A stretch of DNA of 32,000 nt from assembly GCF_000172995.2 (NCBI RefSeq), contig NC_014729.1, positions 2,070,001 through 2,102,000 on the forward strand, given 5' to 3'. The notes under the pieces were generated by a model. That model was not told the origin of the DNA, did not search any database, and worked only from the letters and a program-made list of their open reading frames with translations. The translations under genes were made by a program, and so were the position numbers. How positions within the stretch are numbered: position 1 is the stretch's first letter; each line of letters starts with the position of its first letter. Shown here piece after piece: positions 3,385 through 9,205 of the stretch. The DNA is from Halogeometricum borinquense DSM 11551 (GTDB taxonomy: Archaea; Halobacteriota; Halobacteria; Halobacteriales; Haloferacaceae).

Positions 3385-4188
3385 ATGGATGACTTCGTCA
3401 CTGCCGACGGCCCGGACCTCGACTCGTTGGCAGCCGTCGCCACTCGCGCTGTCCGCGCTGGAGGCGACTACCTCGAAGACGCCTTCCGAGACGGGTCGGT
3501 TCCGGGTGACTACGGCACCGACGACGTGAAAACCGCCGCAGACCGCGCCGCCGAAGAACGAGTTCTCGACGTTATCCGAGAGTCGTTCCCCGACCACGCC
3601 CTGCACGGCGAGGAGTCCGGCCGAAACGGAGACCACCACTACGAGTGGGTCGTTGACCCGCTCGACGGGACGAACAACTTCGCGGCTGGACTGCCGGCGT
3701 TCGCCACCGCGGCGTGCGTCCTACGCGACGGCGACCCCGTCGTCTCGGCAATCTACGAACCGCTTCCCGATTCAACCTACGTCGCCCGACGCGGCGCGGG
3801 TGCGACGGTAGACGGCGAACCGGTGTCGGCAGAGAGCGATGTCTCTCTCGAACACGGGACTGTCTCGTTCGTCGTCGGCCTCCCTGCCATCCGCGACGAA
3901 GAGCTTGCAGCGACGGCGGACCGAATCGAATCGGCCGTCGAAGACCGATGCAAGCGCGTCGTTTCGACGTGGTCTCCGTGCGTCGATTGGGGACTGCTCG
4001 CCCGCGGCGGGTTGGAAGGTATCGTCTGCTTCTACCCGGACGTGTACGAACAACACGCGGGCGAACTTCTCGCCGCCGAAAGCGGCGTCTACTCGCACGG
4101 AACCGGCACTGACGGCCTCTACGTCGGCGCGACGGACGAGGAGACGGCCGCGGAACTCCATACTGTCACCGAATCTGTTCTCGACTGA
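3385..4188 (+). CDS. Inositol monophosphatase family protein (IMPase/FBPase-like)
   Basis: 267-aa ORF with ATG start. It carries the IMPase motifs HGEESG and WVVDPLDGTNNF, plus a C-terminal WSPCVDW-type motif. Confidence 0.9.
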   Translation: MDDFVTADGPDLDSLAAVATRAVRAGGDYLEDAFRDGSVPGDYGTDDVKTAADRAAEERVLDVIRESFPDHALHGEESGRNGDHHYEWVVDPLDGTNNFAAGLPAFATAACVLRDGDPVVSAIYEPLPDSTYVARRGAGATVDGEPVSAESDVSLEHGTVSFVVGLPAIRDEELAATADRIESAVEDRCKRVVSTWSPCVDWGLLARGGLEGIVCFYPDVYEQHAGELLAAESGVYSHGTGTDGLYVGATDEETAAELHTVTESVLD

Positions 4189-4304
4189 CACAGAGCTAGT
4201 GTTCAAATACGGTCAAAAGGTGGTTCACGGACGTTTGTTGGTTGAATACGTGCGGGAAGCTATCGCATGTATGCTAGATTGATGTTCCCTCATTGCCGTA
4301 CCGT

Positions 4305-4853
4305 CTATTCACAGTCTTCGATAGCGGCATCCAACTCTGCCAAGGACTGTTCAAACTCCTCAAGCAACTCCATACCCCATTCGACAGGCATTGAGCGGAC
4401 ATCGTTGACGTACTCGTGCGCTGCTTCGCTTACCGCTCGGCAGAACTCACACCGCTTAACAACGTAACCACAGGCGCTTTCTGGATCAGCTGATGGCGTC
4501 TTCGAAGTTGAGTGATCTCTCGACTCGCGTATCCGATATGCAACGCGCAACGCTCCCTCTGAAAGCGGTTCCAAGAGTAGATATGATTTGCTGGGAGGGA
4601 ATGTTATTTCTTTAGTTTGGTATATATCTAACTCATTCCTTGCTAGCATACTACTTGCATCGATCAATCTTTGGAAATCTGTCTGAATATATTGTCCCAT
4701 ATAGGTGGGCTTCCACTCATATCTTGACTCAAAATTGTCTTCATTGACCACTCGGGCAATCGAATCGTCATTTACTGTTACTGCGATTCCGCCCAAGAGA
4801 TCGTTTATATCTATTACTTCCTCTTTTATCGAATAGTCTACTGACACATTCAT
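4305..4853 (-). CDS. Hypothetical acidic 182-aa protein (islet gene D; candidate immunity/partner of gene C)
   Basis: ATG at 4853..4851 overlaps the TGA of the upstream ORF (plus strand tcat 4850-4853 = ATGA). The region is AT-rich (a hand count of 4621-4680 gives 20/60 G+C). I recognise no family. There is a Cys cluster, CGYVVKRCEFC...H. Confidence 0.6.
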   Translation of the reverse strand: MNVSVDYSIKEEVIDINDLLGGIAVTVNDDSIARVVNEDNFESRYEWKPTYMGQYIQTDFQRLIDASSMLARNELDIYQTKEITFPPSKSYLLLEPLSEGALRVAYRIRESRDHSTSKTPSADPESACGYVVKRCEFCRAVSEAAHEYVNDVRSMPVEWGMELLEEFEQSLAELDAAIEDCE

Positions 4854-5308
4854 TGATTCTCACCACTAGCAAACGCTGTTTGTACTATGCCTGAGTCAGA
4901 ATTCCGTCTGACATGGATCTGACTAATATCATATTTGTCCAACTTATGACCGTCATAGACTAGCTCTCCAGAATTTCCTCCAACTTCACCCTCTTCGATA
5001 GCTGTTTCAATGACTTGTTTGATATCTGCTGGACCCATGGTTTCGGGAAACGCCTCCTCTACACTTTCCATTGCGGTCCCGGGTGAGATAGGCCAATCAC
5101 CACCAGCAGCAGGATGTCCATGCCTTGCGACAATGTGTTTAAAATCGTGCATACTATCCCCGGTTAGATCAATATCCTCATCCCATTTATCGGAATCCAG
5201 CACATAATGAGGACGATCTCCGTCGCGGTGTGAAATAATCTCGATATCTTCAAGTCCGATTTCAGCGCCGCTTTTCAATTTTCCTTTTCTCGATAATTTG
5301 TGATTCAA
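4850..5308 (-). CDS. Hypothetical 152-aa ORF (islet gene C) with no ATG start; probably the detached C-terminal domain of the orphan DUF4157 module upstream
   Basis: The track 'M' at 5308 is a TTG, and the first ATG is at codon 53. The same frame is open upstream to a stop at 5429-5431, so it overlaps the end of ORF 5377..5766. I recognise no family. Contains DFKHIVARHGHPAAGG. Confidence 0.5.
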   Translation of the reverse strand: MNHKLSRKGKLKSGAEIGLEDIEIISHRDGDRPHYVLDSDKWDEDIDLTGDSMHDFKHIVARHGHPAAGGDWPISPGTAMESVEEAFPETMGPADIKQVIETAIEEGEVGGNSGELVYDGHKLDKYDISQIHVRRNSDSGIVQTAFASGENQ

Positions 5309-5376
5309 CCCCGTAAGCTGTCCTGCAAGTTGTGATAGGAATTCGTTGATATTCGAAAAATCATCTGTTCTTTCAA

Positions 5377-5766
5377 CTATCGAACTAATTCTGATTTCTG
5401 TTCGGAATCGAGTTCCCCCTGTAATTGATCAGCGGACTTCATCCGCTGGACGTGTACTTCAGCCTTGGACACCCGATGTACACCAATCTTCCAACCCTCT
5501 ACCACGCGTTGGGCAGTGTCCTCGGCTTCGCGTTCGAGACGCTCATCGGGGTCAATCTCTAACTCGCCCGCTTGGGGGAGCATCGACACCGCGCCACCAG
5601 TCTGCTGGCGCACGTGCGCGAGTTCGTGGGCGAGAATATGCTGACCTTCAGCACTCGATGGATCGTATTCGCCGTGGTTGAACGCGATGTGATTGCCGAC
5701 AGTAAAGGCACGAGCGTTGATGTCTTCACAGGCTTTCGCGGCCGATGGACCCGTGTGAATACGCAC
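5377..5766 (-). CDS. Orphan DUF4157 (HExxH zincin-like) module, a truncated paralog of the 6656..8176 protein; it has no ATG and may be a silent or frameshifted cassette
   Basis: The sequence VRIHTGPSAAKACEDINARAFTVGNHIAFNHGEYDPSSAEGQHILAHELAHVRQQ is almost identical to residues in the large protein. The track start is a GTG, which is the V of the conserved D-V-R-I-H. Homology starts about 9 nt after the stop of the preceding gene (5799-5801). After HVQR only 21 unrelated residues follow before TAG at 5377-5379. Confidence 0.6.
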   Translation of the reverse strand: MRIHTGPSAAKACEDINARAFTVGNHIAFNHGEYDPSSAEGQHILAHELAHVRQQTGGAVSMLPQAGELEIDPDERLEREAEDTAQRVVEGWKIGVHRVSKAEVHVQRMKSADQLQGELDSEQKSELVR

Positions 5767-5790
5767 GTCACCGAGCGAGCCACCTATCCG
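5443..5790 (-). repeat. Direct repeat copy 2 (DUF4157-encoding block)
   Basis: Aligns with 7340..7687 at a constant offset of 1897 bp. I counted 7 mismatches in the 120 nt 5581-5700 against 7478-7597. The protein level shows about 13 differences over 108 aa. Confidence 0.85.
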
Positions 5791-5798
5791 ATAACCCG

Positions 5799-6659
5799 TT
5801 ATTTGTTGTCTGCGACTGCGCCTGCAATTTTGGCCATTTCTTTCCCCTGTTCGCCGAAGCCATAATCGAATTCGAGCGAATAGCCCGGGATGTCCGCGTG
5901 CAGTTTATGATATGGCCGATACGGACGATCCTCGTAGAGATATCGTGTCGCAGCGTCGTAGAGCCCCGGACCGATCACTCGGTACTGTTCTGGTGGCTCT
6001 TCCCCTCGAAGGAGATAGCAGTCTCGGATTTGGCAGCGGAGATGATAGACGAAAAACTCCTGAGCAACCTCCAGTGATGGCAAGTAGTTGGGTTTCAGTT
6101 GTAATCGGGCGTCAGGATCTCGATTGAGGGGCTGATCGCCGAGAACCACCTGCCTCTCCCGGTTGTCATCCAGATAGAGGAAATGAATGTCCGACACCGC
6201 TTCGATCCGGCCAGCTTCATCCAGATAGACATCGAGCAGATACAGAACGAACTCGTCGTCACCGACGGCATCGGGCTCCGGAACTGGCGCGGTCACGTTC
6301 GGGAGCCGACTGTTGATCTGATCGAAGTACGTCCCGAAGTACTTCTCGAAGTCCTCGTCCGAGAGCGACTCGATGGCTGTTTGGACCCGCTGCATCGCCG
6401 CAGTGTCTCGGTCCCACGGAAGCACGTCGTATCCCTTCTCTTTGGCGACGTAGTACTTGGCATACCGGCGCGCCTGGCTCACGTACTCGTTTTCTTTCCC
6501 AGTACGTTTGGCTGGGTCGTCCGGGTAGCCGTCTTGGGAATGGCCCTGGATTTCTCCATCGAACCCAACTGCAACGGTATGTTCCGTCTCATCGTTATCA
6601 TGGACTCTCACCCCAATTCCTTTATTATCTTGGTCGATGATTTTTGCATTCATATTCAT
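5799..6659 (-). CDS. Hypothetical acidic 286-aa protein (islet gene B; candidate immunity/partner of the DUF4157 protein)
   Basis: ATG at 6659..6657 overlaps the TGA of the upstream gene (plus strand tcat 6656-6659 = ATGA). It has no TM segment and no motif I recognise. Confidence 0.7.
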   Translation of the reverse strand: MNMNAKIIDQDNKGIGVRVHDNDETEHTVAVGFDGEIQGHSQDGYPDDPAKRTGKENEYVSQARRYAKYYVAKEKGYDVLPWDRDTAAMQRVQTAIESLSDEDFEKYFGTYFDQINSRLPNVTAPVPEPDAVGDDEFVLYLLDVYLDEAGRIEAVSDIHFLYLDDNRERQVVLGDQPLNRDPDARLQLKPNYLPSLEVAQEFFVYHLRCQIRDCYLLRGEEPPEQYRVIGPGLYDAATRYLYEDRPYRPYHKLHADIPGYSLEFDYGFGEQGKEMAKIAGAVADNK

Positions 6660-8176
6660 TTGTCGTCGAAGCGGGTATCGCCAGTCTCGTCGTGACTGGT
6701 GAGTTTGTCCTTGCCGTAACTTAGTGCTATACCAGTCAATAATGCTCCGAACGCGACAGTGATATTCTCGAAGAGACCAGCCCCTTGTGGGCCGACCATG
6801 TCGAGTTCGGATTGCAACATCGACGCAAGCGTCGCGTGATCGGTTTGGGACTCGATTGCCTTGTATACCACTGCTGCGACACCAGTGCTGATCCCTACGT
6901 CAGTTAGAAAATCTCGAAATGTGCTTTCCTCGGGGAGTTCCCCCTGTTGGAGTTCCGAAAGGATATCGTTACTGAGAGTCTCGAATTCGGAGACGAGTTG
7001 TTTGTGCTTTTCGACTAACTTCTGCTGGTCCTGTGAGAGGCCCATCTCGGAGAGATCGTGGTCATGTGAGACCGTCACGGCCAATCCGTCTCGAAGTGGA
7101 GTCGGTGTCTCCTCTCTCAGCGTCGTCTCACCAGCCGCTGGTTCCACGGTTACTCCCGTCGCTGCGCTGAGCTCGTTGATCTCCGTCGCTAACTCTTCAA
7201 GATCCGCAACAGCAGACTGCAGTTGTTCTAACTTCTCGGGGTCGATATCTAATAGGACACCTTGGGTAGCTTCCTCTTCGATGATTGCCTGCTCCGTGTC
7301 GCCCATCGAGGGAATATACTCCGAGACGTCTTTCGGTGAGCGCTGAACGTGCACGTCGGAGTGCTCCATGCGATGTACGCCGATTTTCCCACCTTGCATC
7401 ACGCGCTGGGCGGTTTCTTCGGCTTCCCGCTCTAAGCGTGGGTCAGGATCAATTTCTAACGAACCCTCTTGGGGGAGCATCGACACCGCGCCACCAGTTT
7501 GTTGGCGCACGTGTGCGAGTTCGTGGGCGAGAATATGCTGGCCTTCAGCACTTGATGGATCGTATTCGCCGTGGTTGAACGCGATGTGATTCCCCACAGT
7601 AAACGCGCGGGCGTTGATGTCTTCGCAGGCTTTCGCGGCGGATGGATCCGTGTGGATTCGAACGTCGCTCAGATTGTCGCCCATTCGGTCTTCCATCGCG
7701 CGCTGAATCGAGGTGTCGAGTTGTTGGCCCGGCGAGGAAATAACGTCTCGTACGGAGTCGGGCACGTTCGCGTCGCCAGCCTTTGACGCCTCATGATGCG
7801 CGCCACGACTGCGCTGGACAGATTTAGCGTTCCGGCGCTCGATGTCTTTGGGAACTTCGGCAGGGCGCTCCTGCTGACGCTGGCGGAACGCGCGCATGTC
7901 GCGTGGCTTGCCCATCGTATCGACGGTCATGCCTTCGTCGGCCCATTCTCGGACTTGGTCTGCGCCGTGTTTCTTGGCCAGTCGCTGAATCTTCGTATCC
8001 AGCCCGTCCATGTATATTTCGACGCCGAATCGTGATTCACACTCTTGGGGTGTTAGCGATCCACCGCCACCACGACTCTGATTTCGATTCGAGCCTCCCG
8101 TCAGCTCTTGAATAGACGGAACGGACGAGGACTCTTTGCTCGGAGTCGTCCGCTCGTTTGCAGACCGAAATCCCAT
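6656..8176 (-). CDS. DUF4157 domain protein (zincin-like HExxH), 506 aa, with a divergent C-terminal tail ending in two hydrophobic segments (islet gene A)
   Basis: The track ORF 6656..8269 starts at a TTG; I trimmed it to the ATG at 8176..8174 (MGFRSANERTT...), which sits 27 nt downstream of a TATA box. The DUF4157 hallmark is present: GQQLDTSIQRAMEDRMGDNLSDVRIHTDPSAAKA...ARAFTVGNHIAFNHGEYDP...GQHILAHELAHVRQQ. The C-terminus has GISTGVAAVVYKAI and GLFENITVAFGALLTGIALSYG. Confidence 0.85.
   Translation of the reverse strand: MGFRSANERTTPSKESSSVPSIQELTGGSNRNQSRGGGGSLTPQECESRFGVEIYMDGLDTKIQRLAKKHGADQVREWADEGMTVDTMGKPRDMRAFRQRQQERPAEVPKDIERRNAKSVQRSRGAHHEASKAGDANVPDSVRDVISSPGQQLDTSIQRAMEDRMGDNLSDVRIHTDPSAAKACEDINARAFTVGNHIAFNHGEYDPSSAEGQHILAHELAHVRQQTGGAVSMLPQEGSLEIDPDPRLEREAEETAQRVMQGGKIGVHRMEHSDVHVQRSPKDVSEYIPSMGDTEQAIIEEEATQGVLLDIDPEKLEQLQSAVADLEELATEINELSAATGVTVEPAAGETTLREETPTPLRDGLAVTVSHDHDLSEMGLSQDQQKLVEKHKQLVSEFETLSNDILSELQQGELPEESTFRDFLTDVGISTGVAAVVYKAIESQTDHATLASMLQSELDMVGPQGAGLFENITVAFGALLTGIALSYGKDKLTSHDETGDTRFDDK
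7340..7687 (-). repeat. Direct repeat copy 1 (DUF4157-encoding block inside gene A)
   Basis: See 5443..5790: same orientation, offset 1897 bp. Confidence 0.85.
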
Positions 8177-8202
8177 TCTTACTGCAAACTTGATAGCTAT
8201 CC

Positions 8203-8216
8203 TATATAATTGTTCG
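8203..8216 (-). promoter_or_regulatory. Archaeal BRE/TATA promoter for islet gene A (leaderless or near-leaderless transcript)
   Basis: The minus strand reads CGAACAA TTATATA, followed by 26 nt, then the ATG at 8176. This spacing is typical for haloarchaeal leaderless genes. Confidence 0.55.
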
Positions 8217-8404
8217 TTCCTCGGCTTCGTGGTGTGCAGATATGGGGGACGGATCGGCGTATGTGCCAATTACTTCGGAGATATTCGACCAAAAACCGCC
8301 GAAATATGGGATCAAGTGTTTGCGTTTTGCTCGAATCAGATACGCTGAACAATACTGCCAGACGGCAGCAAAGTGCAAGTACGCGCGGTACTGATTGTCA
8401 AGAT

Positions 8405-9205
8405 ATGCGTTCCGGAGATGCCGCGTTCGGGGACGAGGCACTGGTCCAGATGCGGTGGCGCGACGCGCTGTTCGCCCACTGGGAGACTGACCCGGAAACG
8501 GTAGCCGGACGCCTCCCGCCGGGTGTCGAGGTTGCCACGTTCGACGGTCACGCGTGGCTCGGCGTCGTCGCGTTCGTTATGGAGGATATCCGCCCGTGCG
8601 GTGTCCCGTTCGGTCTCTCTTTTCCTGAGTTGAACCTTCGGACGTACGTTACACGCTCAGTGGACGACGCTGAACGTTCTGAAGACGATACCGAACGGTC
8701 AGGAGACGGCGCTGAAGCGAGTTCGACCGGCCACCGAACGCAGTCCGGAGACAGCGCCCGCGCGGTGTACTTTTTCAATCTCGATGCCGACGACAGACTC
8801 GGCGTCGCCCTCGCACGGTTGCTGTACTCGCTTCCGTACTACCGAGCAGATATGCGCGTCCGAAGCGGTGCGGACGAATCTATCGAATTCGCCAGTCAGC
8901 GCACCCACTGGAACGCGCCCCCTGCGCACTTCGATGCGACCTACGAACCCGTCGGTGACGACTTCACACCGGAACCCGGTACGCTTGAACACTTCTTTGT
9001 CGAGAACTATCGGTTCTACACGGTCGGGCGGCGACTCTACTACGGTGACATTTCGCATCCCCCGTGGCCGCTTTATGAAGCAAACGCCGAGATTCGGTCG
9101 AACACGCTATTCGCAGCCAACGGGTTCGAGACGCCGACCGACGAACCAGTGGTACACTACTCACCGGGAATCGAAGTGACGGCCGGACGTATCCACCGGG
9201 CCTGA
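8405..9205 (+). CDS. DUF2071 (YqjF-like) family protein
   Basis: ORF 8210..9205 trimmed to the ATG at 8405 (MRSGDAAFGDEALVQMRWRDALFAHWETDPETVAGRLPPGVEVATFDGHAWLGVVAFVMEDIRP). The W-x-D-x-LF-x-HW...LP-x-G...D-x-F-x-G-x-AW-x-GVV-x-F pattern is the DUF2071 N-terminus. An acidic 3x7-aa repeat insertion is present. Confidence 0.8.
   Translation: MRSGDAAFGDEALVQMRWRDALFAHWETDPETVAGRLPPGVEVATFDGHAWLGVVAFVMEDIRPCGVPFGLSFPELNLRTYVTRSVDDAERSEDDTERSGDGAEASSTGHRTQSGDSARAVYFFNLDADDRLGVALARLLYSLPYYRADMRVRSGADESIEFASQRTHWNAPPAHFDATYEPVGDDFTPEPGTLEHFFVENYRFYTVGRRLYYGDISHPPWPLYEANAEIRSNTLFAANGFETPTDEPVVHYSPGIEVTAGRIHRA

What the first reader, a model, noticed from the sequence alone, without database searches (positions are those of the whole stretch)
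4189..8404. AT-rich 4-kb islet encoding two tandem DUF4157 (HExxH zincin) toxin-like cassettes, each followed by a translationally coupled gene of unknown function
The islet sits between an IMPase-family gene and a DUF2071 gene. Base composition drops sharply here: hand counts give 20/60 G+C for 4621-4680 against 41/60 for 3421-3480 in the flank. All five ORFs in the islet are on the minus strand. In order they are gene A, gene B, A', C and D.
- Gene A (8176->6656) has an N-terminal region, a DUF4157 domain and a roughly 220-aa unique tail.
- Gene B (6659->5799) has a start that overlaps the stop of A (ATGA).
- A' (about 5790->5377) is a second copy of only the DUF4157 module, and it has no ATG.
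- C (5308->4850) also has no ATG.
- D (4853->4305) overlaps C by ATGA.
A conserved module followed by unrelated C-terminal sequence, then a small coupled gene, then a start-less orphan copy with its own tail and partner, is the classical layout of polymorphic toxin / immunity loci such as CDI, Rhs and WXG-type systems. DUF4157 has been reported as a toxin-associated domain, for example among effectors linked to extracellular contractile injection systems. I recognise none of B, C, D or the tail of A. If this reading is right, it would be an uncharacterised archaeal DUF4157 toxin/immunity (or other conflict) system. No integrase, tRNA or terminal repeats mark the islet borders.
Basis: partly seen in the sequence, partly recalled or inferred. 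Interest (0 to 1): 0.85.

Follow-up and report, generated by a model that had tools for sequence, protein, structure and literature searches.

The report
Archaeal injection-system toxin locus with orphan cassette
This 4.2-kb insert in Halogeometricum borinquense holds one untested toxin-plus-antidote gene pair of a family already shown to be fired by this archaeon's contractile injection system, followed by a broken spare copy carrying a different, RNase-like toxin and its own antidote gene.

Summary
The window is the Halogeometricum borinquense DSM 11551 chromosome, and genes A, B, C and D are Hbor_21730, 21720, 21710 and 21700.

- **Gene A.** It has a conserved trunk (N-terminal region plus DUF4157/PF13699, HELAH motif). 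That trunk is 81-97% identical to four paralogues shown in 2024 to be secreted by this organism's membrane-bound contractile injection system ("archaeal T6SS"). Similarity to every paralogue stops at residue ~283, after "VHVQR". A 223-aa tail follows.
- **Gene B.** Tails of this type are followed by a B-like (DUF7958) gene in three other genera.
- **A' and C.** A' is a 5'-truncated DUF4157 copy. A single missing A at 5395-5397 separates it from C. Intact DUF4157-C fusions followed by D homologues exist in brine metagenomes.
- **What C is.** C models confidently and resembles the RNase toxin CdiA-CT(BWH57).
- **Origin.** Sixteen related genomes have the flanking genes adjacent with no such genes between them, so the islet is an insertion.

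The polymorphic-toxin reading is therefore supported, but the system is not uncharacterised. It was predicted for this species in 2012 and shown experimentally in 2024. This locus is an untested member. Its orphan cassette and the C/D and tail/DUF7958 families are the only new parts.

The parts
4189..8404 (-). The inserted islet, lying between the inositol monophosphatase gene and the DUF2071 gene.
   Evidence: G+C is 52.2% against 65.2% and 63.1% in the flanks. In 16 related Haloferacaceae genomes the two flanking genes are 0.07-1.2 kb apart with no A, B, C or D homologue between them.
6656..8176 (-). Gene A (Hbor_21730, 506 aa): a full-length effector made of trunk plus tail.
   Evidence: Identified by exact sequence match. 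PF13699 matches at E=3.4e-32.
7328..8176 (-). The conserved trunk of A (residues 1-283): N-terminal region, DUF4157 domain, and a post-domain segment ending in VHVQR.
   Evidence: Identity to paralogues is 97% (Hbor_01880), 96% (Hbor_38900), 92% (Hbor_07690) and 81% (Hbor_02990). All these alignments end at residue 281-285.
7490..7723 (-). The DUF4157 / eCIS_core zincin-like domain of A, with the HELAH motif at 7511-7525.
   Evidence: Domain match. HExxH found at residue 218.
6659..7327 (-). The variable C-terminal tail of A (residues 284-506): the putative toxin, mainly helical, with a hydrophobic C-terminal helix at residues 465-487.
   Evidence: The same tail occurs in Haloarcula onubensis, Natrinema pallidum, Haloferax larsenii and Halomicrobium katesii. 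The model has pLDDT 68 and has no PDB fold match.
5799..6659 (-). Gene B (Hbor_21720, 286 aa, DUF7958): the putative cognate immunity protein, overlapping A by ATGA.
   Evidence: Precomputed PF25858. A B-like gene follows each A-type tail examined in three other genera and also occurs inside an injection-system gene cluster.
5377..5785 (-). A': a 5'-truncated orphan copy of the DUF4157 trunk, with no N-terminal region and no plausible start codon.
   Evidence: PF13699 profile positions 22-78 only, E=4.9e-24. It forms a 300-nt repeat with A at 83% identity.
5395..5397 (-). The frameshift site. An AAA run where one extra A would join A' to C in frame.
   Evidence: The intact homologue P0154 reads ...DSEQKQKINPIIKNTEDF... 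across this junction. The same sequence is present in a second strain.
4850..5428 (-). The C module (annotated Hbor_21710 = 4850-5308): a helical linker followed by an RNase-like toxin domain at about 4859-5251. H98 is at 5135-5137 and H103 at 5120-5122.
   Evidence: It is the C-terminal domain of larger proteins elsewhere. The model has pLDDT 85 and its top fold match is CdiA-CT BWH57. K81, H98, H103 and P116 are invariant.
4305..4853 (-). Gene D (Hbor_21700, 182 aa): the putative immunity protein for C, overlapping C by ATGA.
   Evidence: Homologues at 48-63% identity follow C homologues in L007 and L094, and follow a C remnant in L006.

Best explanation
The islet is a chromosomal satellite locus of the effector arsenal of the Halogeometricum borinquense contractile injection system (the "archaeal T6SS").

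**Active pair (A and B).** Gene A (Hbor_21730) is a polymorphic effector. Its constant trunk is an N-terminal region of about 150 aa plus the DUF4157 zincin-like domain, ending in VHVQR. The trunk is the part that gets the protein loaded onto and fired by the injection system. This is inferred from near-identical trunks in four paralogues whose secretion depends on the sheath. The 223-aa tail is the toxic payload. I guess, at low confidence, that it acts on membranes. Gene B (DUF7958) is a soluble protein, translationally coupled to A. It most likely binds the tail and protects the producer and its sister cells.

**Orphan cassette (A', C and D).** Downstream lies a displaced older cassette. 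It is the 3' two-thirds of a DUF4157 trunk fused to a different toxin module, C. [quoted passage not shown] Its immunity gene D follows. This cassette lost its 5' end when the A-tail/B cassette arrived, and it also carries a 1-nt frameshift. It cannot be delivered as it stands. It still supplies D as standing immunity against neighbours that fire C-type toxins. The 300-nt repeat shared with A also makes it potential material for tail swapping.

**Shown here:** domain content, the trunk/tail breakpoint, co-occurrence of each tail with its partner, the insertion status of the islet, and the frameshift.
**Taken from the literature:** the paralogues are secreted, toxic, and neutralised by their downstream genes.
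**Inferred:** delivery and toxicity of A, the immunity roles of B and D, RNase activity of C, and the displacement history.
For: - **Identity of the locus.** Exact sequence matches give Hbor_21700 to Hbor_21730.
- **Trunk.** It is 97%, 96%, 92% and 81% identical to Hbor_01880, Hbor_38900, Hbor_07690 and Hbor_02990. [quoted passage not shown] Hbor_38900 and Hbor_02990 were toxic in Haloferax volcanii unless co-expressed with their downstream gene (PMC11566945).
- **Breakpoint and known toxin tails.** There is a sharp common breakpoint at residue ~283, and paralogues carry known toxin domains in the tail position.
- **A-tail with DUF7958.** The pair recurs in Haloferax larsenii, Halomicrobium katesii and Haloarcula onubensis. 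It also lies between the baseplate and sheath genes of an H. larsenii injection-system cluster.
- **C is a mobile C-terminal module.** It sits at the C-terminus of DUF4157 proteins P0154 and P0156, and at the C-terminus of 1291-aa and 2060-aa repeat proteins.
- **C with D.** P0154 is followed by a D homologue.
- **C fold.** pLDDT is 85. The top PDB match is the toxin CdiA-CT BWH57 (probability 0.97, E=0.013). That toxin has the BECR RNase fold and conserved H47/H52 (PMC8616854). Two C relatives give sub-threshold EndoU_bacteria hits.
- **Insertion status.**
- **General model.** Zhang et al. 2012 describe a constant peptidase domain plus variable toxin and name this species (PMC3482391).
Against: - Hbor_21730 is not among the nine proteins reported as enriched in the wild-type secretome. 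It is not mentioned in the paper or in its held supplements.
- No toxicity or immunity data exist for A, B, C or D.
- The A tail has no recognisable toxin fold or catalytic motif. Two secreted paralogues (Hbor_01880, Hbor_38720) were not toxic to Haloferax volcanii.
- The fold match for C is marginal in E-value, and C itself hits no Pfam family.
- The role of DUF4157 in loading is itself unproven (PMC11297309).
- I could not see the injection-system gene cluster of this genome with the tools. Its existence rests on the paper.
Confidence: 0.8

Rival explanations
1. The downstream partners B and D are not immunity proteins. They are chaperones or adaptors that stabilise the effectors or load them onto the injection system, as Eag, DUF4123 and DUF2169 proteins do for bacterial T6SS effectors.
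For: - The A tail carries a conserved hydrophobic helix that a soluble partner could shield.
- B is soluble, acidic and large for an immunity protein (286 aa).
- The DUF4157 literature itself speculates about chaperone-like roles (PMC11297309).
Against: - All four downstream partners tested in this organism neutralised toxicity on co-expression (PMC11566945).
- Partners sit downstream with ATGA coupling, and they persist next to 5'-truncated, undeliverable orphan fragments. That fits immunity genes but not loading factors.
- D homologues occur without any effector gene (L005).
Confidence: 0.1
2. The whole islet is an inactive relic. A and B are no longer expressed or delivered, and the locus persists only by drift or as an intracellular addiction module.
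For: - Hbor_21730 is absent from the reported secretome hits.
- A'-C is demonstrably broken: truncated and frameshifted.
- The locus lies far from the injection-system cluster, which is on a plasmid according to the annotation of Hbor_38900.
Against: - A, B, C and D are all intact ORFs.
- By my estimate the 192-codon open C frame in DNA of 43.5% G+C has a chance probability of about 2e-5 (assuming about 5.5% stop codons).
- The locus is retained with 99% identity in a second strain.
- The A trunk stays 92-97% identical to active paralogues, which implies ongoing homogenisation or selection.
- The paper notes that some validated toxins (Hbor_38740, Hbor_38760) were also missing from the secretome.
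Confidence: 0.1
3. The genes form an intracellular toxin-antitoxin or anti-virus defence island that has nothing to do with secretion.
For: The locus consists of small coupled gene pairs in an AT-rich insertion. One D homologue lies beside a VapBC pair and IS fragments (L005; Pfam hits).
Against: - There are no hits to 5027 defence-system models.
- The trunk is shared with proteins shown to be secreted.
- The C domain is found at the C-terminus of very large extracellular repeat proteins. That placement is typical of exported polymorphic toxins, not of antitoxin-controlled intracellular toxins.
Confidence: 0.03

Closest known systems
DUF4157 toxin-immunity pairs of the Halogeometricum borinquense membrane-bound contractile injection system ("archaeal T6SS"), e.g. 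Hbor_38900 and Hbor_02990 with their downstream genes (Zachs et al. 2024, PMC11566945)
   Same: - Same organism.
- Same trunk, at 81-97% identity over residues 1-283.
- Same layout of an effector followed by a coupled downstream gene.
   Different: - The tail and partner families differ. The partner of Hbor_02990 is a 112-aa DUF7957 protein, whereas B is a 286-aa DUF7958 protein.
- This locus is chromosomal and far from the injection-system cluster.
- It was not reported in the secretome and has not been tested.
- It carries an orphan cassette, which that paper does not describe.
PVC-metallopeptidase polymorphic toxins (Zhang et al. 2012, PMC3482391) and eCIS-associated toxins marked by DUF4157 (Geller 2021, PMC8213781; Danov 2024, PMC11297309)
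   Same: - A constant N-terminal HExxH domain with a hypervariable C-terminal toxin.
- Multiple copies per genome.
- H. borinquense is named as an example.
   Different: - Zhang et al. noted that many PVC-type toxins lack adjacent immunity genes. Here each tail has a conserved partner.
- The delivery machine is membrane-anchored and T6SS-like, not a released particle.
Orphan toxin/immunity cassettes of CDI (cdiA-CT/cdiI) and Rhs loci
   Same: - A full-length effector plus immunity gene, followed by 5'-truncated, start-less copies.
- Those copies keep a stretch of the constant region, a different toxin tail and their own immunity gene.
- The shared repeat could allow tail replacement.
   Different: - There are no CdiA/FHA, Rhs/YD, VENN or PxxxxDPxGL elements.
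- The constant region is a DUF4157 trunk and the junction motif is VHVQR.
- The host is an archaeon.
CdiA-CT of Serratia marcescens BWH57 (PDB 7M5F) and bacterial EndoU-type RNase toxins of the BECR superfamily
   Same: - Best fold match for C (probability 0.97, TM 0.58 over the target).
- The H-x4-H spacing equals that of the conserved H47/H52 in 7M5F.
- C sits at the C-terminus of polymorphic toxins, next to a small immunity gene.
   Different: - No sequence-level similarity.
- Foldseek E-value is only 0.013.
- C itself hits no Pfam family.
- The activity of both C and the 7M5F toxin is unproven.

Membership tests
Pfam PF13699 (DUF4157 / eCIS_core) | A profile match above the gathering score of 22 bits | tested here: met
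   A scores 110.9 bits over the full domain. A' scores 84.8 bits but covers only profile positions 22-78.
Pfam PF13699 (DUF4157 / eCIS_core) | The HExxH zincin motif | tested here: met
   HELAH is at residue 218 of A. The same AHELAHV is present in A'.
Polymorphic toxin system of the PVC / contractile-injection class (Zhang et al. 2012) | A constant N-terminal region shared by paralogues, with a sharp switch to unrelated C-termini | tested here: met
   Alignments with more than 30 homologues end at residue 279-288 of A, and the subject lengths range from 341 to 586 aa.
Polymorphic toxin system of the PVC / contractile-injection class (Zhang et al. 2012) | Known toxin domains occupy the variable position in family members | tested here: met
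   PF14410, PF14424 and PF11429 occur in trunk-sharing relatives.
Polymorphic toxin system of the PVC / contractile-injection class (Zhang et al. 2012) | The downstream gene co-varies with the tail, as a cognate immunity gene would | tested here: met
   The A-type tail is paired with DUF7958 in L008, L010, L011 and L012. C is paired with D in L007 and L094. This shows co-occurrence only, not protection.
Polymorphic toxin system of the PVC / contractile-injection class (Zhang et al. 2012) | A contractile injection system is encoded in the same genome | not testable with these tools
   The plasmids of this strain are not in the plasmid collection, and look-ups of Hbor_38900 failed. The feature is reported experimentally in PMC11566945. 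A related cluster was seen in Haloferax larsenii.
Polymorphic toxin system of the PVC / contractile-injection class (Zhang et al. 2012) | The tail is toxic and is neutralised by the partner | not testable with these tools
   This needs expression experiments. It has been shown only for paralogues with other tails.
Effectors secreted by the H. borinquense injection system (Zachs et al. 2024) | Secretion that depends on the sheath | not testable with these tools
   Hbor_21730 is not listed among the enriched proteins and is not found in the held supplements.
BECR-fold RNase toxins (EndoU / CdiA-CT BWH57-like), for module C | The barnase/EndoU/colicin/RelE fold | tested here: inconclusive
   The model has pLDDT 85 and pTM 0.81. 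The only notable PDB match is 7m5f_C, at probability 0.97 but E=0.013 and TM 0.38 (query) / 0.58 (target). HigB2 and MafB2-CT appear further down at E>1.
BECR-fold RNase toxins (EndoU / CdiA-CT BWH57-like), for module C | Sequence membership of Pfam EndoU_bacteria (PF14436, cut-off 25.3 bits) | tested here: not met
   C gives no hit. Relatives P0167 (21.8 bits) and P0165 (14.5 bits) fall below the cut-off and match only the C-terminal half of the profile.
BECR-fold RNase toxins (EndoU / CdiA-CT BWH57-like), for module C | Conserved His, His and Lys/Thr residues typical of metal-independent RNases | tested here: inconclusive
   K81, H98 and H103 are invariant and T79 is nearly so across 13 sequences. 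Their order (K before the two H) differs from EndoU.
Pfam PF25858 (DUF7958), for B | A profile match | tested here: inconclusive
   The precomputed annotation lists PF25858 for B and for its homologues. The local Pfam scan returned nothing for B, so that model may be missing from the local copy.
   No such Pfam domains are found in A or A'. The resemblance is in locus layout only.

The most novel reading that the evidence does not exclude
Three points may be new.

1. The A'-C-D unit would be the first documented orphan (displaced) toxin/immunity cassette of an archaeal contractile-injection effector. Similar truncated DUF4157 fragments lie next to B-like genes in Haloferax larsenii, Halomicrobium katesii and Haloarcula onubensis. 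Together these would show that archaeal effectors diversify by the same cassette-displacement and recombination route as bacterial CDI and Rhs toxins.
2. C/D would define a new RNase-like toxin/immunity family. That family is shared between injection-system effectors and giant secreted haloarchaeal surface proteins.
3. The A-tail/DUF7958 pair would be a widespread haloarchaeal effector/immunity family with a new, possibly membrane-directed, mode of action.
Probability: 0.5. Interest if true: 0.5.

Novelty: new member of a known kind. Interest (0 to 1): 0.35.

Why it matters
Only one archaeal contact-dependent killing system has been studied experimentally, and only a few of its toxins have been tested.

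- **Two more candidate pairs.** This locus adds two toxin/immunity pairs of unknown mechanism to that system. One of them (tail plus DUF7958) is common across haloarchaeal genera and sits inside injection-system gene clusters.
- **A concrete example of arsenal evolution.** It shows how archaeal toxin sets change: by cassette insertion, displaced orphans and retained immunity genes.

The general principle and the family are already published, so the gain is incremental rather than conceptual.

Tried and rejected
- **Family scans with no informative result.** NCBIfam and PADLOC scans of A, B, A', C and D found nothing useful. PDB sequence searches with A, B, D and the C-family profile found nothing significant.
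- **A tail.** The fold search gave only generic helical-bundle hits: a HEPN toxin at E=0.11, and OspC/Vsp. I found no R-x4-6-H motif in the tail, so I do not call it HEPN. The weak Pfam hits (TipAS, Flagellin_IN) are below threshold and I treat them as noise.
- **C homologues.** The word-indexed search found only C itself. The exhaustive search was needed to find relatives.
- **A rearrangement that was not real.** A second strain (L001) appeared to have a different flank upstream of A. That proved to be a scaffolding artefact, with 100-N gaps at L001 8498-8597 and 8878-8977.
- **Possible border repeat.** The 16-nt inverted repeat at 4296-4311 / 8109-8124 was considered as an islet border and rejected. 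Its second arm lies inside gene A, and by my rough estimate about 0.1-0.2 such pairs are expected by chance in 5 kb.
- **Viewing the injection-system cluster of this strain failed.** Look-ups of Hbor_38900 and Hbor_01880 returned nothing, and this strain's plasmids are not in the plasmid collection.
- **Literature gaps.** Makarova et al. 2019 (mBio) is not in the held library. No paper mentions DUF7958.
- **Programmed frameshifting at AAA was considered and rejected.** There is no slippery heptamer, and the fragment lacks a start and an N-terminus anyway.

Full report
**Observation.**
- The ORFs are A 6656-8176, B 5799-6659, A' 5377-5766, C 4850-5308 and D 4305-4853.
- The junction sequences confirm ATGA at A/B and at C/D.
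- The islet 4189-8404 is 52.2% G+C, against 65.2% and 63.1% in the flanks. C is 43.5% and D is 45.4%. The sliding-window minimum is 38.8%.
- Third-position G+C is 0.35 for C and 0.46 for D. It is about 0.6 for B and A, and 0.69-0.77 for the flanking genes. The islet is therefore a mosaic of at least two foreign composition classes.
- PF13699 (DUF4157, now named eCIS_core) is found in A at E=3.4e-32 over the whole profile. It is found in A' at E=4.9e-24 over profile positions 22-78 only. HELAH is present.
- A and A' share a 300-nt direct repeat at 83% identity.
- The flanks are an inositol monophosphatase family gene and a DUF2071 gene. The window has no tRNA.

**Source.** Exact protein look-ups identify the window as the chromosome of Halogeometricum borinquense DSM 11551. 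A is Hbor_21730 (RefSeq form 506 aa), B is Hbor_21720, C is Hbor_21710 and D is Hbor_21700. The ATG at 8176 is the right start, because homologues begin with the same MGFR... sequence.

**Gene A is a trunk plus a swappable tail.** A search with A returned 786 relatives.
- Pairwise alignments show that paralogues in the same genome, and orthologues in Haloferax, Natrinema, Haloarcula and Haloterrigena, share residues 1 to ~283 of A. Identity there reaches 97%.
- All of them lose similarity within a few residues of position 283, just after the motif VHVQR. Total lengths range from 341 to 586 aa.
- Some relatives carry recognised toxin domains beyond that point: PF14410 (GH-E nuclease), PF14424 (deaminase) and PF11429 (colicin D).
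- This is the constant-trunk, variable-toxin architecture that defines polymorphic toxins.

**The family is already known in this organism.**
- Zhang et al. 2012 described "PVC-metallopeptidase" toxins with a constant N-terminal HExxH domain and hypervariable C-termini. They cite Halogeometricum borinquense by name (PMC3482391).
- Makarova et al. 2019 call DUF4157 a signature of polymorphic toxins in archaeal genomic islands (PMC6393860).
- Zachs et al. 2024 showed that H. borinquense kills Haloferax volcanii by contact, through a membrane-bound contractile injection system.
  - Hbor_01880, 02990, 07690, 38720 and 38900, all DUF4157 proteins, are enriched in the wild-type secretome relative to a sheath mutant.
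  - Hbor_02990, 38900, 38740 and 38760 are toxic in H. volcanii unless co-expressed with the gene downstream (PMC11566945).
- Cluster look-ups map four of these onto my hit list. Over the trunk, Hbor_01880 is 97% identical to A, Hbor_38900 is 96%, Hbor_07690 is 92% and Hbor_02990 is 81%.
- Hbor_21730 itself is not mentioned in the text or in the held supplements.
- It is therefore an untested paralogue of proven cargo. Its delivery by the same machine is a strong inference, not a result.

**A tail and B.**
- The A-type tail recurs in Haloarcula onubensis (81% identity), Natrinema pallidum, Haloferax larsenii and Halomicrobium katesii.
- In each of the three loci I could inspect, the next gene is a B-like DUF7958 protein.
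- In these genomes the pairs form tandem arrays. Full-length effectors alternate with shorter DUF4157 genes or fragments, which begin at positions equivalent to A residues 138-204. Each of these is followed by a divergent B-like gene (25-82% identity).
- In Haloferax larsenii plasmid pHl5678-1, one such array lies between the VgrG/PAAR/baseplate genes and the sheath/tube genes of an injection-system cluster. Another lies next to the system's AAA ATPase.
- The tail models at moderate confidence (pLDDT 68) as a mainly helical domain with a short β element. It has no meaningful PDB match and no Pfam, NCBIfam or PADLOC hit.
- It ends in a conserved hydrophobic helix of about 20 residues, flanked by charged residues.
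- My low-confidence guess is a membrane-directed toxin, with B as a soluble cytoplasmic immunity protein.

**A', C and D are a displaced cassette.**
- A' begins about 15 nt after the stop codon of B, part-way into the DUF4157 domain. It has no N-terminal region.
- Its frame stops at 5377. The C frame is open from 5428, so the two overlap in different frames.
- The word-indexed search found no relatives of C. The exhaustive search found 20.
- In those relatives the C module is always C-terminal:
  - in DUF4157 proteins P0154 (439 aa) and P0156 (478 aa);
  - in truncated DUF4157 fragments P0162 and P0165;
  - in a 2060-aa CARDB/CarboxypepD_reg repeat protein;
  - in a 1291-aa TSP3-repeat protein.
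- P0154 reads ...HVQRLKSSERLLDELDSEQKQKINPIIKNTEDF... across the junction. The window reads ...HVQRMKSADQLQGELDSEQKSELVR* in one frame and ...TEIRISSIVERTDDF... in the other.
- Adding one A to the AAA run at 5395-5397 restores a colinear fusion. I read this.
- The same frameshifted sequence is present in a second strain (L001). That strain's A' copy differs from the window by scattered substitutions, so the frameshift is not a sequencing error.

**D travels with C.** D has four metagenomic homologues.
- In L007, a C homologue (60% identity) overlaps the start of a D homologue (63%). A further DUF4157 fragment follows.
- In L094, the intact P0154 is followed by a D homologue (48%).
- In L006, a remnant of C precedes a D homologue.
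- In L005, D stands alone.

**What C is.**
- The 13-sequence alignment gave a confident model (pLDDT 85, pTM 0.81): a two-helix linker followed by an α+β domain.
- The only notable PDB match is chain C of 7M5F, at Foldseek probability 0.97, E=0.013 and TM 0.58 over the target. This chain is the toxin domain of CdiA-CT from Serratia marcescens BWH57.
[quoted passage not shown] They list conserved H47, E51, H52 and R89 as likely active-site residues (PMC8616854).
- The C family has invariant K81, H98, H103 and P116, in a KHIVARHxHP motif with the same H-x4-H spacing.
- Two C relatives give sub-threshold matches to Pfam EndoU_bacteria (21.8 and 14.5 bits against a 25.3-bit cut-off).
- I therefore treat C as a probable RNase toxin of the BECR superfamily. 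I do not file it in any named family, because the sequence-level test was not met.

**The islet is an insertion.** A scan with the inositol monophosphatase protein returned related Haloferacaceae genomes.
- In 16 of them (Halogranum, Halobellus, Halegenticoccus, Haloprofundus, Halobium, Halopenitus, Halobaculum and Haloquadratum), the DUF2071 gene lies 0.07-1.2 kb downstream.
- The S9 peptidase lies upstream in many of these genomes, and CopD lies downstream in many of them.
- None has an A, B, C or D homologue in between.
- Where the gap is about 1.1 kb, it holds an unrelated minus-strand gene for a 306-321 aa protein with an N-terminal signal-like sequence and a C-terminal hydrophobic segment.

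**Mechanism (inferred).**
- A is loaded through its trunk onto the injection system and fired into neighbouring cells, where the tail is toxic. B protects the producer and its kin.
- The DUF4157 domain may release the toxin by self-cleavage (Zhang et al. 2012). Alternatively it may act in recognition or loading (Danov et al. 2024). Neither role is established.
- An incoming A-tail/B cassette recombined into a resident trunk-C/D gene. That pushed the 3' part of the resident gene downstream, where it lost its start and later its reading frame.
- D remains useful as immunity against C-type toxins from competitors. The 300-nt repeat leaves open recombination of the A trunk onto the C tail.

**Verdict.** The claim of an uncharacterised system is not supported. 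This is a new, untested member of a family predicted in this species in 2012 and validated there in 2024. The modestly new elements are the orphan cassette, the RNase-like C/D family and the widespread tail/DUF7958 pairing.

Noticed in passing
L013 (Haloferax larsenii plasmid pHl5678-1) 18451-23916 and 32249-36252: Inside a complete injection-system gene cluster (VgrG, PAAR, gp25, baseplate, sheath, tube, AAA ATPase), a full-length DUF4157 gene is followed by a B-like gene. Two short orphan DUF4157 fragments follow, each next to another B-like gene. A second DUF4157 plus B-like set lies beside the ATPase.
   Followed up: partly
L010 / L011 (Halomicrobium katesii KB905379.1, 176.6-193.2 kb): The identical 461-aa effector (P0054) occurs twice, 5185 bp apart. 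It sits within a long array of alternating DUF4157 and DUF7958 genes, which suggests a recent tandem duplication of a five-gene unit.
   Followed up: no
L006 3-7768 (Logan SRR34348067 contig): A protein of more than 1729 aa, with VWA, PKD and TSP3 repeats and a C-terminal PBECR2 nuclease domain, is followed by several small ORFs. After those come a remnant of the C domain and a D homologue. This looks like an orphan or immunity array behind a different kind of polymorphic toxin.
   Followed up: partly
P0155 (2060 aa) and P0163 (1291 aa): The C toxin module also terminates giant repeat proteins (CARDB/CarboxypepD_reg and TSP3 repeats) that have no DUF4157. The same toxin is therefore shared between at least two delivery routes.
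   Followed up: partly
window 5563-5656 (alignment A3 columns 145-238): Ten of the eleven substitutions between the DSM 11551 and RZHH copies of A' cluster in about 95 nt around the HExxH region. This pattern would fit a gene-conversion tract copied from another DUF4157 paralogue.
   Followed up: no
L001 8498-8597 and 8878-8977; L002 8602-8603, 9179 and 10985: Draft assemblies break or carry Ns exactly in the conserved DUF4157 trunk and in A'. The near-identical paralogues therefore confound assembly. "Partial" DUF4157 annotations and apparent rearrangements in drafts should not be trusted.
   Followed up: yes
window 4296-4311 and 8109-8124: A 16-nt inverted repeat, 94% complementary, has one arm spanning the stop codon of D (4305-4307) and the bases just downstream of it, and the other arm inside the 5' end of gene A. 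It is probably chance and is not an islet border.
   Followed up: partly
L005 2108-5633 (GCA_001564315.1 contig): A D homologue stands without any C gene. Nearby are a weak Imm11-like ORF, an IS1595 transposase fragment and a VapBC pair. The start of another A-like N-terminal region lies just downstream. This looks like an immunity-gene island.
   Followed up: no
L095 795-2716 (H. borinquense AOHT01000038): The validated toxin Hbor_02990 is followed, with an ATGA-type overlap, by a 112-aa DUF7957 protein. DUF7957 and DUF7958 have consecutive Pfam numbers, and both turn out to be partners of injection-system effectors.
   Followed up: partly
window 8405-9205: The DUF2071 protein matches its Pfam profile in two stretches. 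It contains an acidic, low-complexity insert (roughly ...SVDDAERSEDDTERSGDGAEASSTGH...).
   Followed up: no
L014 10758-11723 and L027 10796-11716: In Halogranum and Haloprofundus, the slot between the inositol monophosphatase and DUF2071 genes holds a minus-strand gene. It encodes a 306-321 aa protein with a signal-like N-terminus and a C-terminal hydrophobic segment. H. borinquense and the other nine genomes with short gaps lack this gene, so the intergenic slot is variable in its own right.
   Followed up: partly
window 5799-6659 (gene B): Precomputed annotations list PF25858 (DUF7958) for B and all its homologues. The local Pfam-A scan returns no family for B even at E=10. The two Pfam copies evidently differ.
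   Followed up: no
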